64,000 bases of DNA from an uncultured Gemmatimonadales bacterium (lineage in GTDB: Bacteria > Gemmatimonadota > Gemmatimonadetes > Gemmatimonadales > GWC2-71-9). Made by a program: the position numbers. This document shows, piece after piece, positions 46,301 through 52,300 of this stretch. The number at the start of each line of letters is the position of its first letter. The first letter of the stretch is position 1. The DNA is taken from contig CAWGSK010000002.1 in NCBI GenBank assembly GCA_963825055.1, forward strand, positions 136,455 through 200,454, given 5' to 3'.

Positions 46301-49300
46301 CCGGCGTTTTCCCCGGACGGCGCCACCCTGGCCTGGGCCCGGGCGGACGAGGAGGGGACCGACATCTACCGGGCCGATGTGGCGCGGAACTGCTGCGCCA
46401 GCCGGCTCACGGTCGGCCGCTTCGCCGACAATCTCTCCCCGTCCTTCTCGCCCGACGGCCGGCGGATCGCCTTCATCTCCACCCGGTCGGGGCTGCCCCA
46501 GGTGTACGTCATGGATGCCGACGGCACCGACCAGGAGCTGTTTGCGCCGTTCGATTACGGCGTGACAGGCAGTTCCAACGCCCCGGACTGGTCTCCGGAC
46601 GGCGCCAGTGTCACATTTCACCGGGACGTGGACCGGGCACCGCAGGTCTTCGTCCTCGATGTCAACAGCCGCCGGGTGCGGCAGTTGACCTCATCTGGCC
46701 GCAATGAGGACCCCACCTGGGCTCCGGACGGGCGCCATATCGCCTTCGTCTCGAACCGTAGTGGGAGGCAGCAGCTCTGGATCATTGACGTTGAGTCGGG
46801 CAGGATCCGCGCCTTGCCGACGCCGGGTGGTACCCGGCTCCCGGCGTGGTCCCGCCGGCTCGCGGAGTTCACGAACAACCCCTGAGGAGGAAGCACATGC
46901 GCATGCGTTCCCTGCTGGTTCTGCTGGCCGCTGCCACGATCTCGACGGCGTGCGGCAGCAATCCGCCGCCCGAAGAGCCCACGCCCGCGATCGACAGCAC
47001 CGCGATCAAGGCACGGATGCGTCAGGATTCCATCGACGCCGCAAACCGGGCCGCCCGTGAGCAGGCCGCGCGCGATTCGGCCGCCCGGGCCCGTGCCGCC
47101 GCCGAGGCGGCGGAGCGTGCACGCATGGCGCTCATGAACGAAATGTCCGCGATGATCCACTTCGACTTCGACAAGTCGGACATCAAGTCGGATGACATGG
47201 CCAACCTCGACCGCAAGGCCGCCATCCTGATGGCGAATACGGGCGTTACCCTCCGCATCTCGGGTCATGCCGACGAGCGGGGCTCGGACGAATACAACCT
47301 GGCGCTGGGCAACCGCCGTGCGAATTCGGCCAAGCGGTACCTGGTCAACAAGGGCGTCCCCGAGGGGCGGATCACCACGGTGAGCTTCGGTGAGGAGCGC
47401 CCGGTCGCCATGGGCAGCACCGAGGACGCCTGGGCCCAGAACCGGCGGGACGAGTTCGAGATCACGGGCGGCGGCAACTCGCTCGTGGCGCCGAAGTAGT
47501 CCTGTGCTTCGCATGCTCAAGGCCACCCCGCTCGCCGGGGTGGCCCTGTGCATCGCCCTCGGGGGCTGCGCCCTCAAGAGCGATGTGAAGCGGGTCGAGA
47601 CGGAGGTCGTACTGCTCCGCCAGGAGACGGCCCGCCGCGATTCCGTGCGCGCTGCTCGGCTGACCGAGATCATCACGCTGCAGCAGGAGCTGATGGACTC
47701 CCTCGGCACCGCCGTCACCCAGACCCAGCGGACGGTCCGGGCCATGCAGGGCAGCGTGTCGAACGACCTCTACAACGTGCAGCAGCAGCTGGTGCAGCTC
47801 CAGGAACTGAGCGGCCAGAGCCAGCAGCGCCTGAGTGAACTGCGGGCCCAGGTGGAAGCCCGGGGCCAGGAGGTTGCCCGGGACACCGCTGCGGCCGCAG
47901 CCGGTCCGGCGCCTGCCTCGGCCGAGCAGATGTACCAGGCCTCCCTCCAGCAGTTGCGCCGGGGCAGCCTGACCACCGCGCGGCTGGGCTTCCGGCAGCT
48001 GGTGCAGGCGTATCCCACGAGTCCACGAGTGCCCGACGCCCTGTATTTCATCGGCGAGAGCTTCTCGTCCGACCAGCCCGATTCCGCCGTGGTGTACTAC
48101 CAGAACATCATCGGCAGCCACCCGGGGTCCGCGCGCGTGGCGCCGTCCCTGTACAAGCTCGGACTGCTGGCGGAGCAGCGTGGCGACGCCGCCCAGGCCC
48201 GGACCTACTACCAGCGCGTGGTCTCGGAGTTCCCCCGGTCCGACGAAGCGGCCCTCGCGCGCGACAAGCTGAGAGCGTCCGGGCAGTAGCCCCAGGCGCC
48301 GCTGGTTATGGCCACACCCGGCGGGGAGATGCCGTTCCTCGATCATCTCGAGGAATTGCGCTCGCGAATTCTCAAGGCGCTGGGCGCCATTGTCCTGGCC
48401 TTCATTGCCGGGTTCTGGATCGTCCAGCGCTTCAACGTCGTTTCCCTCCTCAAGGAACCGATCTCCCCGTACCTCGCCGGCGGGAAGCTCGCGGTCCTGA
48501 GCCCGACCGAACCCGTGATGATCGTCTTCAAGCTCGGGTTCCTGGTCGGGCTCGTGCTCGCGTCGCCAATCATCATCTGGCAGCTGTGGGCCTTCCTGGC
48601 CCCTGCGCTCTATCAGAAGGAAAAGCGGGCGATCGTCCCGGCCCTCTTCGTCGGGTTCGTCCTGTTCCTGATCGGCGCGGCTGCCGGGTATTTCGGGGTG
48701 GTGCCGCAGGCACTCCGGGTGCTGTTCAGCTTCCAGAGCGAGGCGCTGACCCCCGTCATCACGTATGACGCCTACTTCAGCTTCATCCTGCAGGTCGTGC
48801 TGGCCCTCGGCATCAGCTTCGAGCTGCCGCTGGTGATCATCGTCCTCGCCTCGCTCGGGGTGGTGGACCCGCCGATGCTGAACCGGTTCCGGCGGTTCGC
48901 CCTGGTGCTGGCGTGTATCGCGGGCGCTGTGCTCTCGCCCGGGGCGGATGTCCTGTCGATGATCATGATGACGATCCCGCTGATTTTCCTGTATGAGGTT
49001 GGCTTCTTCGGGACCGTGCTCATCTACCGGCGCCGGCGCCGGGCGGATCGCGGGGCGGGCCGGACGGCGGCCATCATCCTGCTGCTGCTCTTCCTGGGCG
49101 GGGGATCGGCGGTGGCCCAGGTGCCCGGCAAGCTGCTGAAGCCGCCGCCCGGGAAGCTGCAGGATACCACCGCGGTGCGCGATACGTCGCGCGTGCCTCC
49201 CGCGGTGCTCGATTCCGCCCAGGCCGAGCGCCTGGGCCTGCCCACCGCCCCGACCCGCCCGTTCCCCGAACCCGATTCCATCATGGCCGCCCTCCTGGCA

Positions 49301-52300
49301 CGGCCCGGTTACCAGGTCATCCGGTTCCAGGCCGACACGGCGACGCTGTATGCGGAGGAGAAACGGATCGTGCTGGAGGGACGGGCGGCCACCGAGCGCC
49401 GGGGAAGCGTCCTTGAAGCGGATCATATCCTCTACGACGACACCGCGTGCCTGCTCCAGGCCAGCGGCGGCCTCCGGCTCTTCGACGGGGGCACCGTGAT
49501 GGTGGGGGACTCGATCCGGTACAACAGCTGCCGGAAGCGCAGCGTGGTGGCTGACGCGCTGACCAACTTCGCCGAGGGGCAGACCGTGTGGTTTCTGCGC
49601 GGCAACATCGCGCAGGATTCGAGCGCCAGCCGGATCTACGCCAGTTCGGGCGACTTCACCAGCTGCGACCTCCCCGTGCCGCACTACCACTTCTCCGCGG
49701 GTGAGGTGAAGTGGATCAGCAAGAACATGATCGTCGCCAGGCCCGCCGTCCTCTACGTGCGGGACGTCCCGATCCTCTGGCTGCCCTTCGTCTTCCAGGA
49801 CACCCGCCCCGGCCGCCGCTCGGGCATCCTGATCCCGCAGTTCGGGATCAACGACATCGTCCGGCCCGATCCGGGCTACAACCGGCAGGTCACGAACCTC
49901 GGCTACTACTGGGCCCCCAGCGAGTACTTCGACCTCACCGCGCGGCTCGACTGGTATGCCAACCGGTACGTGCAGTTCGGGCTCGCGGGGCAGTACCGCA
50001 TCCTGGACCGGTTCCTGAGTGGAAATATCAACGTGAACCGCCAGCAGGAGAACACTGGCTCGCGGGCCACCTCGATCCGCTGGGACCACCGCCAGAACTT
50101 CAACCTGACCACCACGCTGAACTTCAATGTCAATTACGTCACCAACACTTCGATCGTGCAGCGCAATGCCATCGACCCGGTGCTGTCCACCCAGCAGATC
50201 ACGAGCTCGCTCAACTTCACGAAGCGCTTCGGCTGGGGAGCGGTCACCCTGGGTGGCAACCGGCGGCAGAACCTGAGCGACAAGAGCGCGACCACCCAGT
50301 TCCCGGCACTGACGATCTCGCCCAAGCCGCTCGACCTCGGGCGGAACATCACGTGGTCGCCCGGGCTGAGCCTGACCAACGACCTGACGACCGGCACGGC
50401 CCTGCCGGGCCTGGTGACGCTGAACGCGGCGGGACTGCCCGACACGTTCGCGCAGACCAGCGACGCCCGCACCACGGCGTTCAACCTGGATACGCCGCTC
50501 CGGATCGGCAGCTTCAGCTGGCGGAACTCCATCAGCGTGATCGACCGGAAGGTGACGGGCCGGCAGGTGGTCACTTTCCAGGAGGACAACCCCGTCACCG
50601 CGGATCCGACAGATTCGGTGACCGTGAGCCAGGTCTATCCCGGGGACTTCTCCACCGGGATCGACTGGAACACCGGTATCAACCTGCCGACCCTCTTCCG
50701 CGGATCCTGGAAGATTCAGCCCGTCGTCGGAATCGCGAACGCCACGACCGCCGGCCCGTTTGCCCTCCGGAACCGGAACACCAACGGCAACTATGTCCTG
50801 CAGGGGAAGCGGTTTTCCCTCACCCTGGGGGCGACACCGACCTTCTTCGGGTTCCTGAACGGCCTCGGGCCACTGAGCCGGGTCCGGCACAGCATCTCCC
50901 CGGTCCTGTCCTTCACCTACAGCCCCGAGGCCAGCGTCCCGCTGGACTACGCGGAAGCGCTCGCCGGCCCGGGTCGCACACCCGTGCTCACGAGCGCGGC
51001 GCGGAAGTCGCTCAGCATGAGCCTCAACCAGAACCTGGAGGCGAAGACCCGTCGCGCGCCCGGCGATACCTCCGACGCCGGCGTGCGGAAGTTCCGGATC
51101 TTCAGCATTGCCACCAGCGCGATCGCGTATGACTTCGAGCAGGCCTCGCAGCCGGGCCGGACCGGGTGGACCACCCAGACCGTCACGAATTCCTTCCAGA
51201 GCGACCTGCTGCGGGGGTTCAACCTGAGCCTGACGCACGACCTCTGGCGCGGGACGGTGGGCACCGATACCGCCGACTTCAAGCCCTTTCTCCAGAGCAT
51301 GAACGCCAGCTTCGCGCTGAGCGGCAGCACGTTCCGGTCCATCCTCTCGCTGGTGGGCCTCGCCGGGGCCGCGCCCGACACGGGCCGGCGCGCGGCGGAG
51401 CCCGCAGTGCCGACGTCGTACGTCGCCGACGTTGGCCGGCGGCGCTCCGGCTCCTTCTACAGCTCCGAACAGATTCCCGGCGCCCGGGGCCGGGGCTTCA
51501 CCGCCAACGTCAACTACTCCCTGAGCCGGGTGCGCGGCGACACGACTCGACCCGCGCAACAGAACCTCGGGTTCAGTACGGCCTTCTCGCCGACCCCGCT
51601 CTGGTCGCTCTCCTGGTCGGCACAGTACAACGTGACCGACTCAAAGTTCGAGTCCCAGGTCATCCGGCTCGAACGCGACCTGCACGAATGGCGCGCCAGC
51701 TTCAACTTCGTGCGGAATGCCAACGGCAACGTCGCATTCTTCTTCAGCATCTACCTGACCGACCTGCCGGACCTGAAATTCGACTACGACCAGACGACCA
51801 TCAAGCGGTGAGGGGACAGGGAGTGGGTTTCGGGTATCGGGTATCGGGTATCGGGGATCGGGTCTCATTGGTCCGTTACCTTTGGTCCGCCCGTCCGCCC
51901 GTCCGCCCGTCCGCCCGTCCGCCCGTCCGCCCGGTCCTGTCCCCCGTACGGGACACCCTTCCTTGCCCACAAAGCCTAACCGGTTGTGGCACAATGCATT
52001 TCACCGTCGTGCCTGCTGGCACGCACCATGCTTTCCCTGCAGGCATCCCCTACCGGAGACACCAATGAGATCGCGCTGGTTGCTGCTGCTCGCCCCCTTT
52101 GCCGCCTTCGCCTGCACCAACGACGTGCTGGTGGACAACTCTCCTCCCGCGCCCACCGGCCTGATCTACGAGGTCGAGCCGAGCGGAACGCCGGGCAGTC
52201 CTTCGGGACTCCTGTTGACGTGGGATGACGTGTCGGACCCGACGATCAAGGTCTGGCACGTGTACTCGCGGGGGGCGATCGGTGACACCTGGCTGCTGCG

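What a model noticed while it worked through the whole genome (the two positions that open the first line are those of the whole stretch)
48329..51811. TatC and the LptD precursor fused in one reading frame with an internal signal peptide
g00194 (1160 aa), annotated as TatC, is a fusion: a complete six-helix TatC (aa 5-234), then an arginine run, a hydrophobic stretch and an A-x-A/Q site (aa 233-266) that look like a cleavable signal peptide, then a full LptD-type outer-membrane LPS-assembly protein. It is the only TatC and only LptD found in the genome. Proposal: helix 7 works as an internal signal peptide, so one polypeptide yields an inner-membrane Tat subunit and, after signal-peptidase cleavage, LptD. 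Across Gemmatimonadota tatC and lptD are neighbours; in family GWC2-71-9 they have become one ORF.
Evidence so far: Pfam: TatC 5-217 (204 bits), LptD_2 468-664 and 822-940; no other TatC/LptD/OstA row; sequence and hydropathy. 1276 database proteins of 638-2030 aa match at E<=1e-10; all 120 listed carry PF00902+PF19838, 98-100% coverage, 1138-1193 aa. Junction alignment of 31: Arg run, hydrophobic core and A-x-A/Q kept in nearly all. Six-frame search with aa 101-500 in 120 other genomes of the phylum: one uninterrupted full-length match, no stops, open frame ~1170-1300 aa in 43 of 53 family genomes and 2 of 28 of a second family; elsewhere two matches (tatC part, lptD part), mostly adjacent on one strand (33 nt apart in G159). 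Two of the 120 (G189 fused, G217 split) are genomes flagged unpublished.
(Added by a program. Inside this text positions count along the whole contig: contig position 136,455 is position 1 of the stretch shown here. "Call 12" and the like, gene names such as g00115 and contig names such as C1 are that model's own, and its searches are not shown. The text may have been shortened before it was handed on; [...] marks where a part breaks off. The agent that wrote the report below was given it as the finding of a first reader that could run no searches.)

Follow-up and report, generated by a model that had tools for sequence, protein, structure and literature searches.

The report
TatC and LptD in one gene
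In this soil bacterium and most of its family, the only gene for the inner-membrane TatC protein is joined in frame to the only gene for the outer-membrane LptD protein, with LptD's old export signal kept between them, so the cell probably makes one chain and cuts it in two.

Summary
Window 48329-51811 (+) is one open frame of 1160 aa. It holds a complete TatC (aa 1-~235), an Arg run, a short hydrophobic stretch ending AVA263|Q264, a disordered Pro-rich linker, and a full LptD (beta-jellyroll plus large barrel).

It is the only TatC and the only LptD found in an 87%-complete genome. That genome also has TatA, a twin-arginine hydrogenase subunit, signal peptidase I, LptF/G and LpxC.

The fusion is not an artefact. 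144 of 166 genomes of the same family carry an uninterrupted frame across the junction. At least three further fusions with different junctions occur in two other families.

New here: "helix 7" is the homologue of the ordinary N-terminal Sec signal peptide of stand-alone LptD. Q264 aligns with a Gln in 61 of 67 stand-alone relatives, where it sits at median position 27 after a classic signal peptide with Ala at -1. No conserved internal start codon exists.

Best reading (about 0.7): a polyprotein cut by signal peptidase I. This gives mature LptD and a TatC that keeps the spent signal peptide as a seventh helix. Cleavage itself is inferred, not shown. I found no description in print. I rate it a new variant of a known kind.

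The parts
48329..51811 (+). Single ORF tatC-lptD, 1160 aa. An alternative ATG lies at 48308. The stop codon is at 51809-51811.
48329..49027 (+). TatC domain, aa 1-233: six transmembrane helices, ending in the cytoplasm.
   Evidence: Pfam TatC 5-217 at 204.7 bits. TIGR00945 is above its cut-off. The domain aligns 1-237 to Aquifex TatC 4b4a 1-235, E 3e-48. Foldseek gives TM 0.81 to 4b4a. Model pLDDT is mostly 70-90.
49028..49063 (+). Arg-rich cytoplasmic segment, aa 234-245 (RRRRRADRGAGR). It is TatC's own C-terminal tail and serves here as the n-region of the internal signal peptide.
   Evidence: The same Arg cluster follows helix 6 in stand-alone TatC.
49064..49117 (+). Hydrophobic core and c-region of the internal signal peptide, aa 246-263 (TAAIILLLLFLGGG-SAVA). 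The predicted signal peptidase I site lies between A263 and Q264.
   Evidence: pLDDT is below 50 from residue 242.
49118..49276 (+). Predicted mature N-terminus (Q264) and disordered Pro-rich linker, aa 264-~316.
   Evidence: Q264 is nearly invariant. pLDDT is below 50 for 242-289. The same linker is present in stand-alone LptD.
49277..49801 (+). LptD N-terminal beta-jellyroll, aa ~317-491.
   Evidence: Strands 331-491 in the model. Weak NCBIfam LptD hits at 349-509. Full-length LptD matches in PDB.
49886..51808 (+). LptD outer-membrane beta-barrel, aa ~520-1160.
   Evidence: Pfam LptD_2. The model has high confidence except for loop 1018-1052. Foldseek against LptDE 8h1s_C gives E 1.8e-26 over 953 columns.
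43644..48289 (+). Upstream Tol-Pal cluster on the same strand: tolQ-like 43644-44420, tolR-like 44317-44853, tolA/TonB_2-like 44850-45581, tolB-like 45578-46885, pal-like OmpA 46846-47499, and a TPR CpoB/YbgF-like gene 47390-48289. Starts are those of the longest ORFs.
58664..58921 (+). tatA, the only TatA/B-family gene found in the genome, 6.9 kb downstream.

Best explanation
The gene encodes a two-product membrane polyprotein. The ribosome makes one chain. The six TatC helices insert into the inner membrane, with helix 6 ending in the cytoplasm. The Arg-rich tail and the next short hydrophobic stretch (aa 234-263) then act like an ordinary Sec signal peptide and start export of the ~900-residue LptD part. 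Signal peptidase I cuts after A263. This releases mature LptD (starting at Q264) into the periplasm for assembly into the outer membrane. It leaves TatC with the spent signal peptide as a seventh, C-terminal helix. The fusion arose by loss of the tatC stop codon between two genes that are neighbours on one strand throughout the phylum. It is tolerated because TatC's C-terminus and the n-region of LptD's signal peptide lie on the same (cytoplasmic) side. Shown here: the single frame, its conservation, the homology of helix 7 to LptD's signal peptide, both folds, and the lack of a conserved internal start. Inferred: Sec-dependent export of the LptD part, cleavage by signal peptidase I, and the fate of the retained helix.
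For: (1) The fusion is real and old. 144 of 166 family genomes have a stop-free frame across the junction, at 44-67% identity over aa 101-500. All 30 sampled f1 fused TatC parts form one clade with support 100/99. Six clusters at 50% identity are fused.
(2) Helix 7 is LptD's signal peptide. In alignment A1 (39 fused, 67 stand-alone), Q264 is Gln in 39/39 fused and 61/67 stand-alone rows. In the stand-alone rows it lies at own position 12-82 (median 27), after an N-terminal positive/hydrophobic segment. Position -1 is Ala in 54/61 and -3 is A/L/V in 57/61. In fused rows -1 is Ala in 38/39 and -3 is Ala in 29/39.
(3) Across 118 close homologues, -3 is A99 V7 L6 G4 T2, while -2 and -4 vary. This is the signal peptidase I pattern.
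(4) Independent fusions with different linkers all keep a hydrophobic core followed by small-x-small|Q: G047 VFG|Q, G228 SSA|Q, G091 LGA|Q, G180 ASA|Q. So do the 50%-cluster representatives.
(5) The hydrophobic core is the size of a signal peptide. The median count of V/L/I/F/M/W is 7 in fused and 7 in stand-alone rows.
(6) AlphaFold gives confident TatC and LptD folds but pLDDT below 50 for 242-289. PDB matches are to LptD of LptDE and to TatC.
(7) No conserved internal start: no codon column is ATG/GTG/TTG in more than 17 of 27 distinct junctions. A start plus an SD-like tetramer occurs in 5 of 27, and in none in the window.
(8) The parts the mechanism needs are present: signal peptidase I, TatA, a twin-arginine [NiFe] hydrogenase small subunit, LptF/G and LpxC.
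(9) Precedent: S. aureus signal peptidase SpsB cleaves the polytopic LtaS between its membrane and extracellular domains (PMC12260438, passages read). The Bradyrhizobium FbcH cytochrome b/c1 precursor is recalled only and was not found in the library.
Against: There is no direct evidence of cleavage: no proteomics, no N-terminal sequence, no expression data, and no RNA run listed. No dedicated signal-peptide predictor was available. The site was first located with a pattern that required A/G/S at -1 and Q at +1, so only the -3 column of that count and the later pattern-free alignment are independent. The uncharged run is somewhat longer in fused rows (median 17) than in stand-alone rows (median 13). 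That could mean some drift towards a membrane anchor. Related genomes are not independent samples, so conservation counts overstate. Conservation of the frame does not show that the fusion is advantageous; it may be neutral. The genome is 87% complete, so a second tatC or lptD cannot be excluded.
Confidence: 0.7

Rival explanations
1. Uncleaved tether. The hydrophobic stretch is a permanent seventh transmembrane helix. LptD stays covalently joined to TatC, and the ~55-residue Pro-rich linker crosses the periplasm, so one chain spans both membranes.
For: There is no stop or conserved start between the parts. The linker 264-~316 is disordered and, fully extended, is long enough in principle; this is my estimate, not computed. 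The uncharged run is slightly longer in fused forms.
Against: The same linker and the same small-x-small|Q site occur in stand-alone LptD, where the preceding segment is an ordinary N-terminal signal peptide. A pure anchor has no reason to keep Ala at -1 in 38/39 rows and Ala at -3 in 29/39 rows, nor to keep the site in independent fusions. The count of large hydrophobic residues is unchanged at a median of 7. By established knowledge, barrel assembly needs a periplasmic, chaperone-bound precursor.
Confidence: 0.08
2. Two translation products from one frame. LptD is made mainly from an internal start codon near the end of helix 6, with its own N-terminal signal peptide, and the full-length chain is a minor by-product.
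For: One database gene call of 933 aa (P0046) starts with M at the position homologous to the end of helix 6 (MAGAVVIARRRRK...), which shows that such a precursor is conceivable. GTG codons occur in this region in some genomes, up to 17 of 27 in one column.
Against: No start-codon column is conserved. A start plus an SD-like tetramer is found in only 5 of 27 distinct junctions, and in none in the window's gene. With no stop codon, ribosomes that start at the tatC start must still read through into lptD, so the fused chain is made in any case.
Confidence: 0.1
3. Artefact or dead gene: an assembly or frameshift error, or a pseudogene created by loss of a stop codon.
For: The genome is a draft of 35 contigs with 6% contamination.
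Against: The same uninterrupted frame occurs in 144 of 166 family genomes from many assemblies, including near-complete ones with 1-10 contigs. It also occurs in 116 of 120 listed database proteins from several sources. Both halves score as full-length family members and fold confidently. They are the only tatC and lptD found, in a genome that needs both.
Confidence: 0.01
4. The stretch is a Tat (twin-arginine) signal peptide that TatC presents to itself in cis, so LptD is exported by Tat.
For: Five consecutive arginines precede the hydrophobic stretch.
Against: The Arg cluster directly follows helix 6 in stand-alone TatC proteins too, so it belongs to TatC. The S/T-R-R-x-F-L-K consensus (recalled) is absent from the window's junction, whereas a genuine one (SRRDFL) is seen in the genome's hydrogenase subunit. 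Most stand-alone LptD relatives have ordinary signal peptides (list). By established knowledge, beta-barrel precursors must stay unfolded, which fits Sec rather than Tat.
Confidence: 0.02

Closest known systems
Stand-alone tatC followed by lptD (LptD_2 type) in other Gemmatimonadota
   Same: The two genes are the same, in the same order and on the same strand. LptD starts with an N-terminal signal peptide ending small-x-small|Q. In two f8 genomes only a single in-frame TGA separates them.
   Different: Here the stop codon is gone, TatC's C-terminal tail is shortened to the Arg cluster, and the signal peptide is internal, at residues 234-263.
[quoted passage not shown]
   Same: A polytopic membrane domain is followed by an exported domain, and signal peptidase I cuts between them (PMC12260438, passages read).
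   Different: LtaS is one enzyme, and the cut inactivates it. Here the two halves are unrelated machines of two different membranes, and the cut would be needed to make LptD functional.
FbcH cytochrome b/c1 precursor of Bradyrhizobium japonicum (recalled from memory: Thony-Meyer and colleagues, about 1989-1991; not found in the paper library)
   Same: As recalled, one gene encodes a polytopic inner-membrane protein followed by an internal signal peptide and an exported protein, and cleavage yields two proteins.
   Different: Both FbcH products belong to one complex in one membrane. TatC and LptD have no known functional link and end up in different membranes.
Canonical TatC (Aquifex aeolicus 4b4a; E. 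coli TatBC 9dzz)
   Same: The sequence aligns end to end (1-237 to 1-235, E 3e-48). The fold matches with TM 0.81 at 41% identity.
   Different: The predicted mature product carries an extra C-terminal helix that ends in the periplasm. No TatB was found: there is a single TatA/B-family gene.
Canonical LptD of Proteobacteria (LptDE structures 8h1s, 4q35, 5iv9)
   Same: N-terminal beta-jellyroll plus a very large beta-barrel. Foldseek E is 1.8e-26 to 1e-24, with alignments of about 900 columns.
   Different: Sequence identity is only 12-13%. The protein belongs to Pfam LptD_2 (PF19838), not PF04453. It has a long disordered N-terminal linker. No LptE partner was looked for.

Membership tests
TatC (PF00902 / TIGR00945) | Full-length match to the family models above their curated cut-offs | tested here: met
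   PF00902 positions 1-208 of 208, 204.7 bits against a cut-off of 25.1. TIGR00945 199.4 bits against 132.7.
TatC (PF00902 / TIGR00945) | Six-helix TatC fold | tested here: met
   The model shows helices through residue ~235. Foldseek against 4b4a gives TM 0.81 and rmsd 3.2 over 229 columns.
TatC (PF00902 / TIGR00945) | Works with a TatA-family partner on twin-arginine substrates | tested here: inconclusive
   tatA is present in the window. A hydrogenase small subunit with an SRRDFL leader is present. Activity cannot be tested here.
LptD (LPS-assembly outer-membrane protein) | Match to an LptD family model | tested here: met
   PF19838 LptD_2 at 140 bits against a cut-off of 22.5. The classical PF04453 model gives no hit in the genome. 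NCBIfam LptD equivalogs reach only E 1e-6, far below their cut-offs.
LptD (LPS-assembly outer-membrane protein) | N-terminal beta-jellyroll joined to a large C-terminal beta-barrel | tested here: met
   Model strands 331-491 and 520-1157 with high pLDDT. The best PDB matches are full-length LptD chains.
LptD (LPS-assembly outer-membrane protein) | Rest of the LPS pathway present (Lpx synthesis, LptFG); LptE plug | tested here: inconclusive
   LptF/G and LpxC were found. LptE, LptA and LptC were not searched for.
Sec-type signal peptide cleaved by signal peptidase I | Positively charged n-region, short hydrophobic h-region, and small residues at -3 and -1 | tested here: met
   The n-region has net charge +4 to +7. 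Position -3 is Ala in 99/118 rows; -1 was fixed to A/G/S by the pattern used. In the pattern-free alignment, fused rows have -1 Ala in 38/39 and -3 Ala in 29/39. The core holds a median of 7 large hydrophobic residues.
Sec-type signal peptide cleaved by signal peptidase I | Located at the N-terminus of the precursor | tested here: not met
   It lies at residues 234-263, after six TatC helices. It is homologous to N-terminal signal peptides of stand-alone LptD.
Sec-type signal peptide cleaved by signal peptidase I | Actual cleavage by signal peptidase I | not testable with these tools
   A Peptidase_S26 gene exists in the genome. No proteomic or experimental data were available.
Twin-arginine (Tat) signal peptide | S/T-R-R-x-F-L-K consensus (recalled) ahead of the hydrophobic region | tested here: not met
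   The junction reads Y-RRRRR-ADRGAGR-T. The Arg cluster is TatC's own tail.
Bacterial membrane polyprotein with an internal signal peptide (FbcH type, recalled) | One ORF with an upstream polytopic domain ending in the cytoplasm, an internal signal peptide, and an exported downstream protein | tested here: met
Bacterial membrane polyprotein with an internal signal peptide (FbcH type, recalled) | Two mature proteins demonstrated | not testable with these tools
   No experiment or proteomics was available.

The most novel reading that the evidence does not exclude
The chain is not simply a tolerated fusion. One possibility is that it stays uncut in part of the population, tying the Tat translocase covalently to the LPS exit pore through a periplasm-spanning linker. 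The other is that the signal peptide left on TatC after cleavage has become a working seventh helix that takes over part of the role of the missing TatB in this TatA/TatC-only system. In either case the fusion would couple the two envelope machines in number and in place.
Probability: 0.1. Interest if true: 0.85.

Novelty: new variant of a known kind. Interest (0 to 1): 0.6.

Why it matters
An essential outer-membrane barrel would be made as the tail of an inner-membrane protein. That fixes TatC and LptD synthesis at 1:1. It would send LptD to the Sec channel co-translationally, behind a polytopic protein. It also predicts a natural seven-helix TatC.

It gives a simple natural test case for three questions. 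How does signal peptidase I handle internal signal peptides in bacteria? Can a ~900-residue barrel precursor be exported as a C-terminal domain? How do topologically compatible neighbouring genes fuse again and again?

For annotation, these 1160-aa proteins are named only "TatC", so LptD looks absent from a whole family.

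Tried and rejected
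Internal start codon: looked for and not found conserved.

Assembly artefact: rejected by the distribution.

Tat-type signal: rejected.

Sequencing runs: 14 DNA holders, no RNA holder listed.

Literature:
- TatC + LptD + fusion gave 9 papers, none relevant by title or abstract.
- Gemmatimonadetes + LptD gave 2 papers, neither on a fusion by title or abstract.
- TatC + Gemmatimon gave 34 papers, of which 10 were listed. Of these I opened only the 2013 TatC survey PMC3827258. A term search inside it found no 'fused', 'fusion', 'LptD' or 'OstA'.
- The FbcH precedent could not be found, so it is cited from memory.

My first cleavage-site script picked the wrong Ala-x-Ala and was replaced.

Cluster look-up of six fused representatives gave no organism names.

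A second structure job (TatC plus helix 7 alone) and a complex prediction were not run.

Full report
**1. What is there**

Window 48329-51811 (+) is one open frame of 1160 codons. A second in-frame ATG lies at 48308, and the upstream gene stops at 48287-48289.

- Pfam finds a complete TatC (model positions 1-208 of 208 on residues 5-217, 204.7 bits) and LptD_2 (140 bits, two stretches from residue 468).
- NCBIfam's tatC equivalog TIGR00945 scores 199.4 bits against a cut-off of 132.7. Classical LptD equivalogs give only weak hits on residues 349-604.
- The TatC part aligns end to end with the crystallised Aquifex TatC (residues 1-237 to 1-235, E 3e-48).
- The junction, read from the DNA, is ...LIFLYEVGFFGTVLIY233-RRRRR-ADRGAGR-TAAIILLLLFLGGG-SAVA263-Q264-VPGKLLKPPPGK...

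An AlphaFold2 model of the whole chain was built on a 106-row alignment (mean pLDDT 85, pTM 0.65).

- It gives confident TatC helices.
- It gives a beta-jellyroll (strands 331-491) and a very large barrel (520-1157).
- It falls below pLDDT 50 only at residues 242-289 and in loop 1018-1052.

Foldseek against the PDB returns full-length LptD chains of LptDE complexes first (8h1s_C, E 1.8e-26, 953 columns, 13% identity). TatC comes next (4b4a, TM 0.81, 41% identity).

**2. Genome context**

The own genome is 87% complete, 6% contaminated and in 35 contigs.

- It has one PF00902 hit and one PF19838 hit, both in this ORF, and no hit to the classical LptD model PF04453.
- It has one TatA/B-family gene, 6.9 kb downstream in the window.
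- It has one Peptidase_S26 (signal peptidase I) gene, LptF/LptG and LpxC.
- It has a [NiFe] hydrogenase small subunit (TIGR00391, 449 bits) whose N-terminus carries SRRDFL.

So the organism should need both a working Tat pathway and a working LptD. Directly upstream, on the same strand, lies a full Tol-Pal set: MotA/TolQ, ExbD/TolR, TonB_2, a PD40 TolB-like protein, an OmpA-type Pal and a TPR CpoB-like protein.

**3. Not an artefact, and how widespread**

Residues 101-500 were searched in six frames in 400 genomes of the phylum. Counting the rows of that table by hand, the window's family (f1, 166 genomes) divides as follows:

| Result in f1 | Genomes |
|---|---|
| One stop-free match across the junction (query 1/2/3/9 to 399/400, 44-67% identity; open frames mostly 1163-1394 aa, shorter where a contig ends) | 144 |
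| Two or three matches | 17 |
| One weak match | 1 |
| No match | 4 |

- Two of the 144 (G057, G182) are flagged unpublished. Without them the count is 142 of 164.
- One of the 17 (G037) is in fact fused, with a ~50-residue acidic Gly/Pro-rich insert.
- Four others (G025, G033, G236, G227) have a stand-alone lptD with its own N-terminal signal peptide and no tatC within ~1.5 kb upstream. Their tatC stands alone on another contig. G001, of which only the tatC locus was fetched, also has a stand-alone tatC.

Outside f1 almost all genomes give two matches. I inspected 15 of these genomes at the sequence level.

- tatC and lptD are neighbours on one strand in families f2, f3, f6, f7, f8, f10 and f11.
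- They are in overlapping frames in f3.
- In two f8 genomes they are in the same frame, separated by a single TGA.
- Stop-free fusions also occur in f2 (G047, G228, G091) and f4 (G180).

Among public proteins, 1456 match residues 236-560 at E<=1e-10, and 116 of the 120 listed carry both Pfam domains. At 50% clustering, at least six representatives are fused: P0122, P0123, P0124, P0126, P0136 and P0137.

**4. One origin in the family, others elsewhere**

I built a maximum-likelihood tree of 47 TatC parts. Rows left out were G388, the second tatC of G047, and G069, where my motif did not find the start; G188 was not included.

- All 30 f1 fused rows form one clade (support 100/99).
- The f2 fusions G047/G228 sit with the unfused f2 G067. 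G091 is separate, and the f4 fusion G180 sits with f7/f8.
- Their junctions differ in length and sequence. I therefore read at least four fusion events.
- The stand-alone TatC of the f1 genomes G025, G227, G033 and G236 groups with f2 TatC (99/98), not with the f1 fused clade. This suggests those lineages took up another tatC and then lost the TatC part of the fusion. That reading is an inference from five genomes.

**5. The key test: what is "helix 7"?**

In a MAFFT alignment of 39 fused and 67 stand-alone LptD relatives, made without any pattern, Q264 is among the nearly invariant columns.

| | Fused rows | Stand-alone rows |
|---|---|---|
| Gln at the Q264 column | 39/39 | 61/67 |
| Own position of that Gln | 252-280 | 12-82, median 27 |
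| Residue at -1 | Ala 38/39 | Ala 54/61 |
| Residue at -3 | Ala 29, Leu 6, Val 2, Thr 1, Gly 1 (of 39) | Ala 32, Leu 18, Val 7 (of 61) |

In the stand-alone rows that Gln comes directly after a typical N-terminal signal peptide.

In the 118 close homologues that could be anchored (3 of 121 could not), -3 is A99 V7 L6 G4 T2, while -2 and -4 vary freely. In that count -1 and +1 were fixed by my search pattern and carry no weight.

The stand-alone lptD genes inside f1 end their signal peptides VEA|QQPG, LGA|QQPG and VAG|QQPG. The independent fusions read VFG|QVP, SSA|QVG, LGA|QPA and ASA|QQQ. The distant fused representatives keep RRR, a hydrophobic core and A-x-A|Q.

The hydrophobic core holds a median of 7 large hydrophobic residues in both fused and stand-alone rows. 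The uncharged run is somewhat longer in fused rows (median 17 against 13).

The arginine run is not LptD's. Stand-alone TatC proteins end ...RRR... right after helix 6. In f1 the rest of TatC's tail has been lost, so that cluster now doubles as the n-region.

**6. Rival: an internal start**

In 27 distinct fused junctions, the 13 codons from the LYE motif to the Arg run align without gaps.

- No column is ATG/GTG/TTG in more than 17 of 27.
- A start codon with an SD-like tetramer 5-13 nt upstream occurs in 5 of 27, and not in the window's gene.
- With no stop codon, the fused chain must be made anyway.

**7. Mechanism proposed**

- Shown: one frame; its age and spread; both folds; the homology of residues ~246-263 to LptD's signal peptide; the presence of signal peptidase I.
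- Inferred: TatC inserts with its C-terminus in the cytoplasm (established TatC topology). The next hydrophobic stretch opens the Sec channel for the LptD part. Signal peptidase I cuts after A263. LptD goes on to the outer membrane. TatC keeps residues 234-263 as a short seventh helix ending in the periplasm.
- Precedent read: S. aureus SpsB cleaves polytopic LtaS between its membrane and extracellular domains (PMC12260438, passages).
- Precedent recalled only: the Bradyrhizobium FbcH cytochrome b/c1 precursor (not in the library).

Whether the fusion is useful is open. Possible uses are fixed 1:1 output or co-translational delivery of a very large barrel precursor. Alternatively it may simply be a tolerated loss of a stop codon between topologically compatible neighbours. 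Its recurrence and the single-TGA intermediates fit easy origin. The occasional loss within f1 shows it is not irreversible.

**8. Novelty**

Sources name these proteins only "TatC". My searches found no description of a TatC-LptD fusion. A term search inside the 2013 TatC diversity survey, which covered one genome of the phylum, found none of 'fused', 'fusion', 'LptD' or 'OstA'. Supplements were not examined.

The mechanism type (internal signal peptide, two products) is known. The pairing of an inner-membrane translocase subunit with an outer-membrane barrel, as the sole copy of both across a family, is new as far as I could find.

**9. Limits**

- No signal-peptide predictor, no proteomics and no RNA data were available (one search lists no RNA holder).
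- Genomes are related, so counts are not independent.
- Most two-match genomes were not inspected.

Noticed in passing
window 43644-48289 (+): A complete Tol-Pal cluster (tolQ, tolR, tolA-like, tolB, pal, cpoB-like) runs on the same strand straight into tatC-lptD, so the fusion may be the tail of one envelope operon.
   Followed up: partly
window 51882-53192 (+): The ORF just downstream of lptD has no Pfam hit. Its likely start, MRSRWLLLLAPFAAFAC, looks like a lipoprotein signal. I did not test whether this lipoprotein next to lptD could be an LptE-like partner.
   Followed up: no
window 49118-49120 (Q264) and alignment A1: The predicted first residue of mature LptD is Gln in 100 of 106 fused and stand-alone relatives, usually followed by V/Q/E-P. 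An almost invariant N-terminal Gln suggests pyroglutamate formation or a recognition role.
   Followed up: partly
L043/L048 (G188) and L044 (G273): In two genomes of family f8, tatC and lptD are in the same frame with a single TGA between them, one substitution away from a fusion. G188 also has two tatC copies in tandem.
   Followed up: partly
L068-L072 and L050-L053: Four family genomes (G025, G033, G236, G227) have a stand-alone lptD (L050-L053) and a stand-alone tatC on another contig, and that TatC groups with the neighbouring family's TatC rather than with the fused clade. G001, whose lptD locus was not fetched, has a stand-alone tatC that groups weakly with f3. This hints at replacement followed by loss of the TatC half.
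   Followed up: partly
L049 (G037): One fused family member carries a ~50-residue Asp/Gly/Pro-rich insert between the Arg cluster and the hydrophobic core, so the cytoplasmic spacer can be long without breaking the frame.
   Followed up: no
L034 and L039 (G047): A genome of family f2 has both a fused tatC-lptD and a second stand-alone tatC on another contig.
   Followed up: no
window 47462-51559 (-): A 1365-aa open frame runs antisense to the whole gene. I take it as a by-product of high G+C, not a gene. It was not tested.
   Followed up: no
G000:C12:28991-30151 (L064): A [NiFe] hydrogenase small subunit with a twin-arginine leader, in a genome whose only TatC is the fused one.
   Followed up: partly
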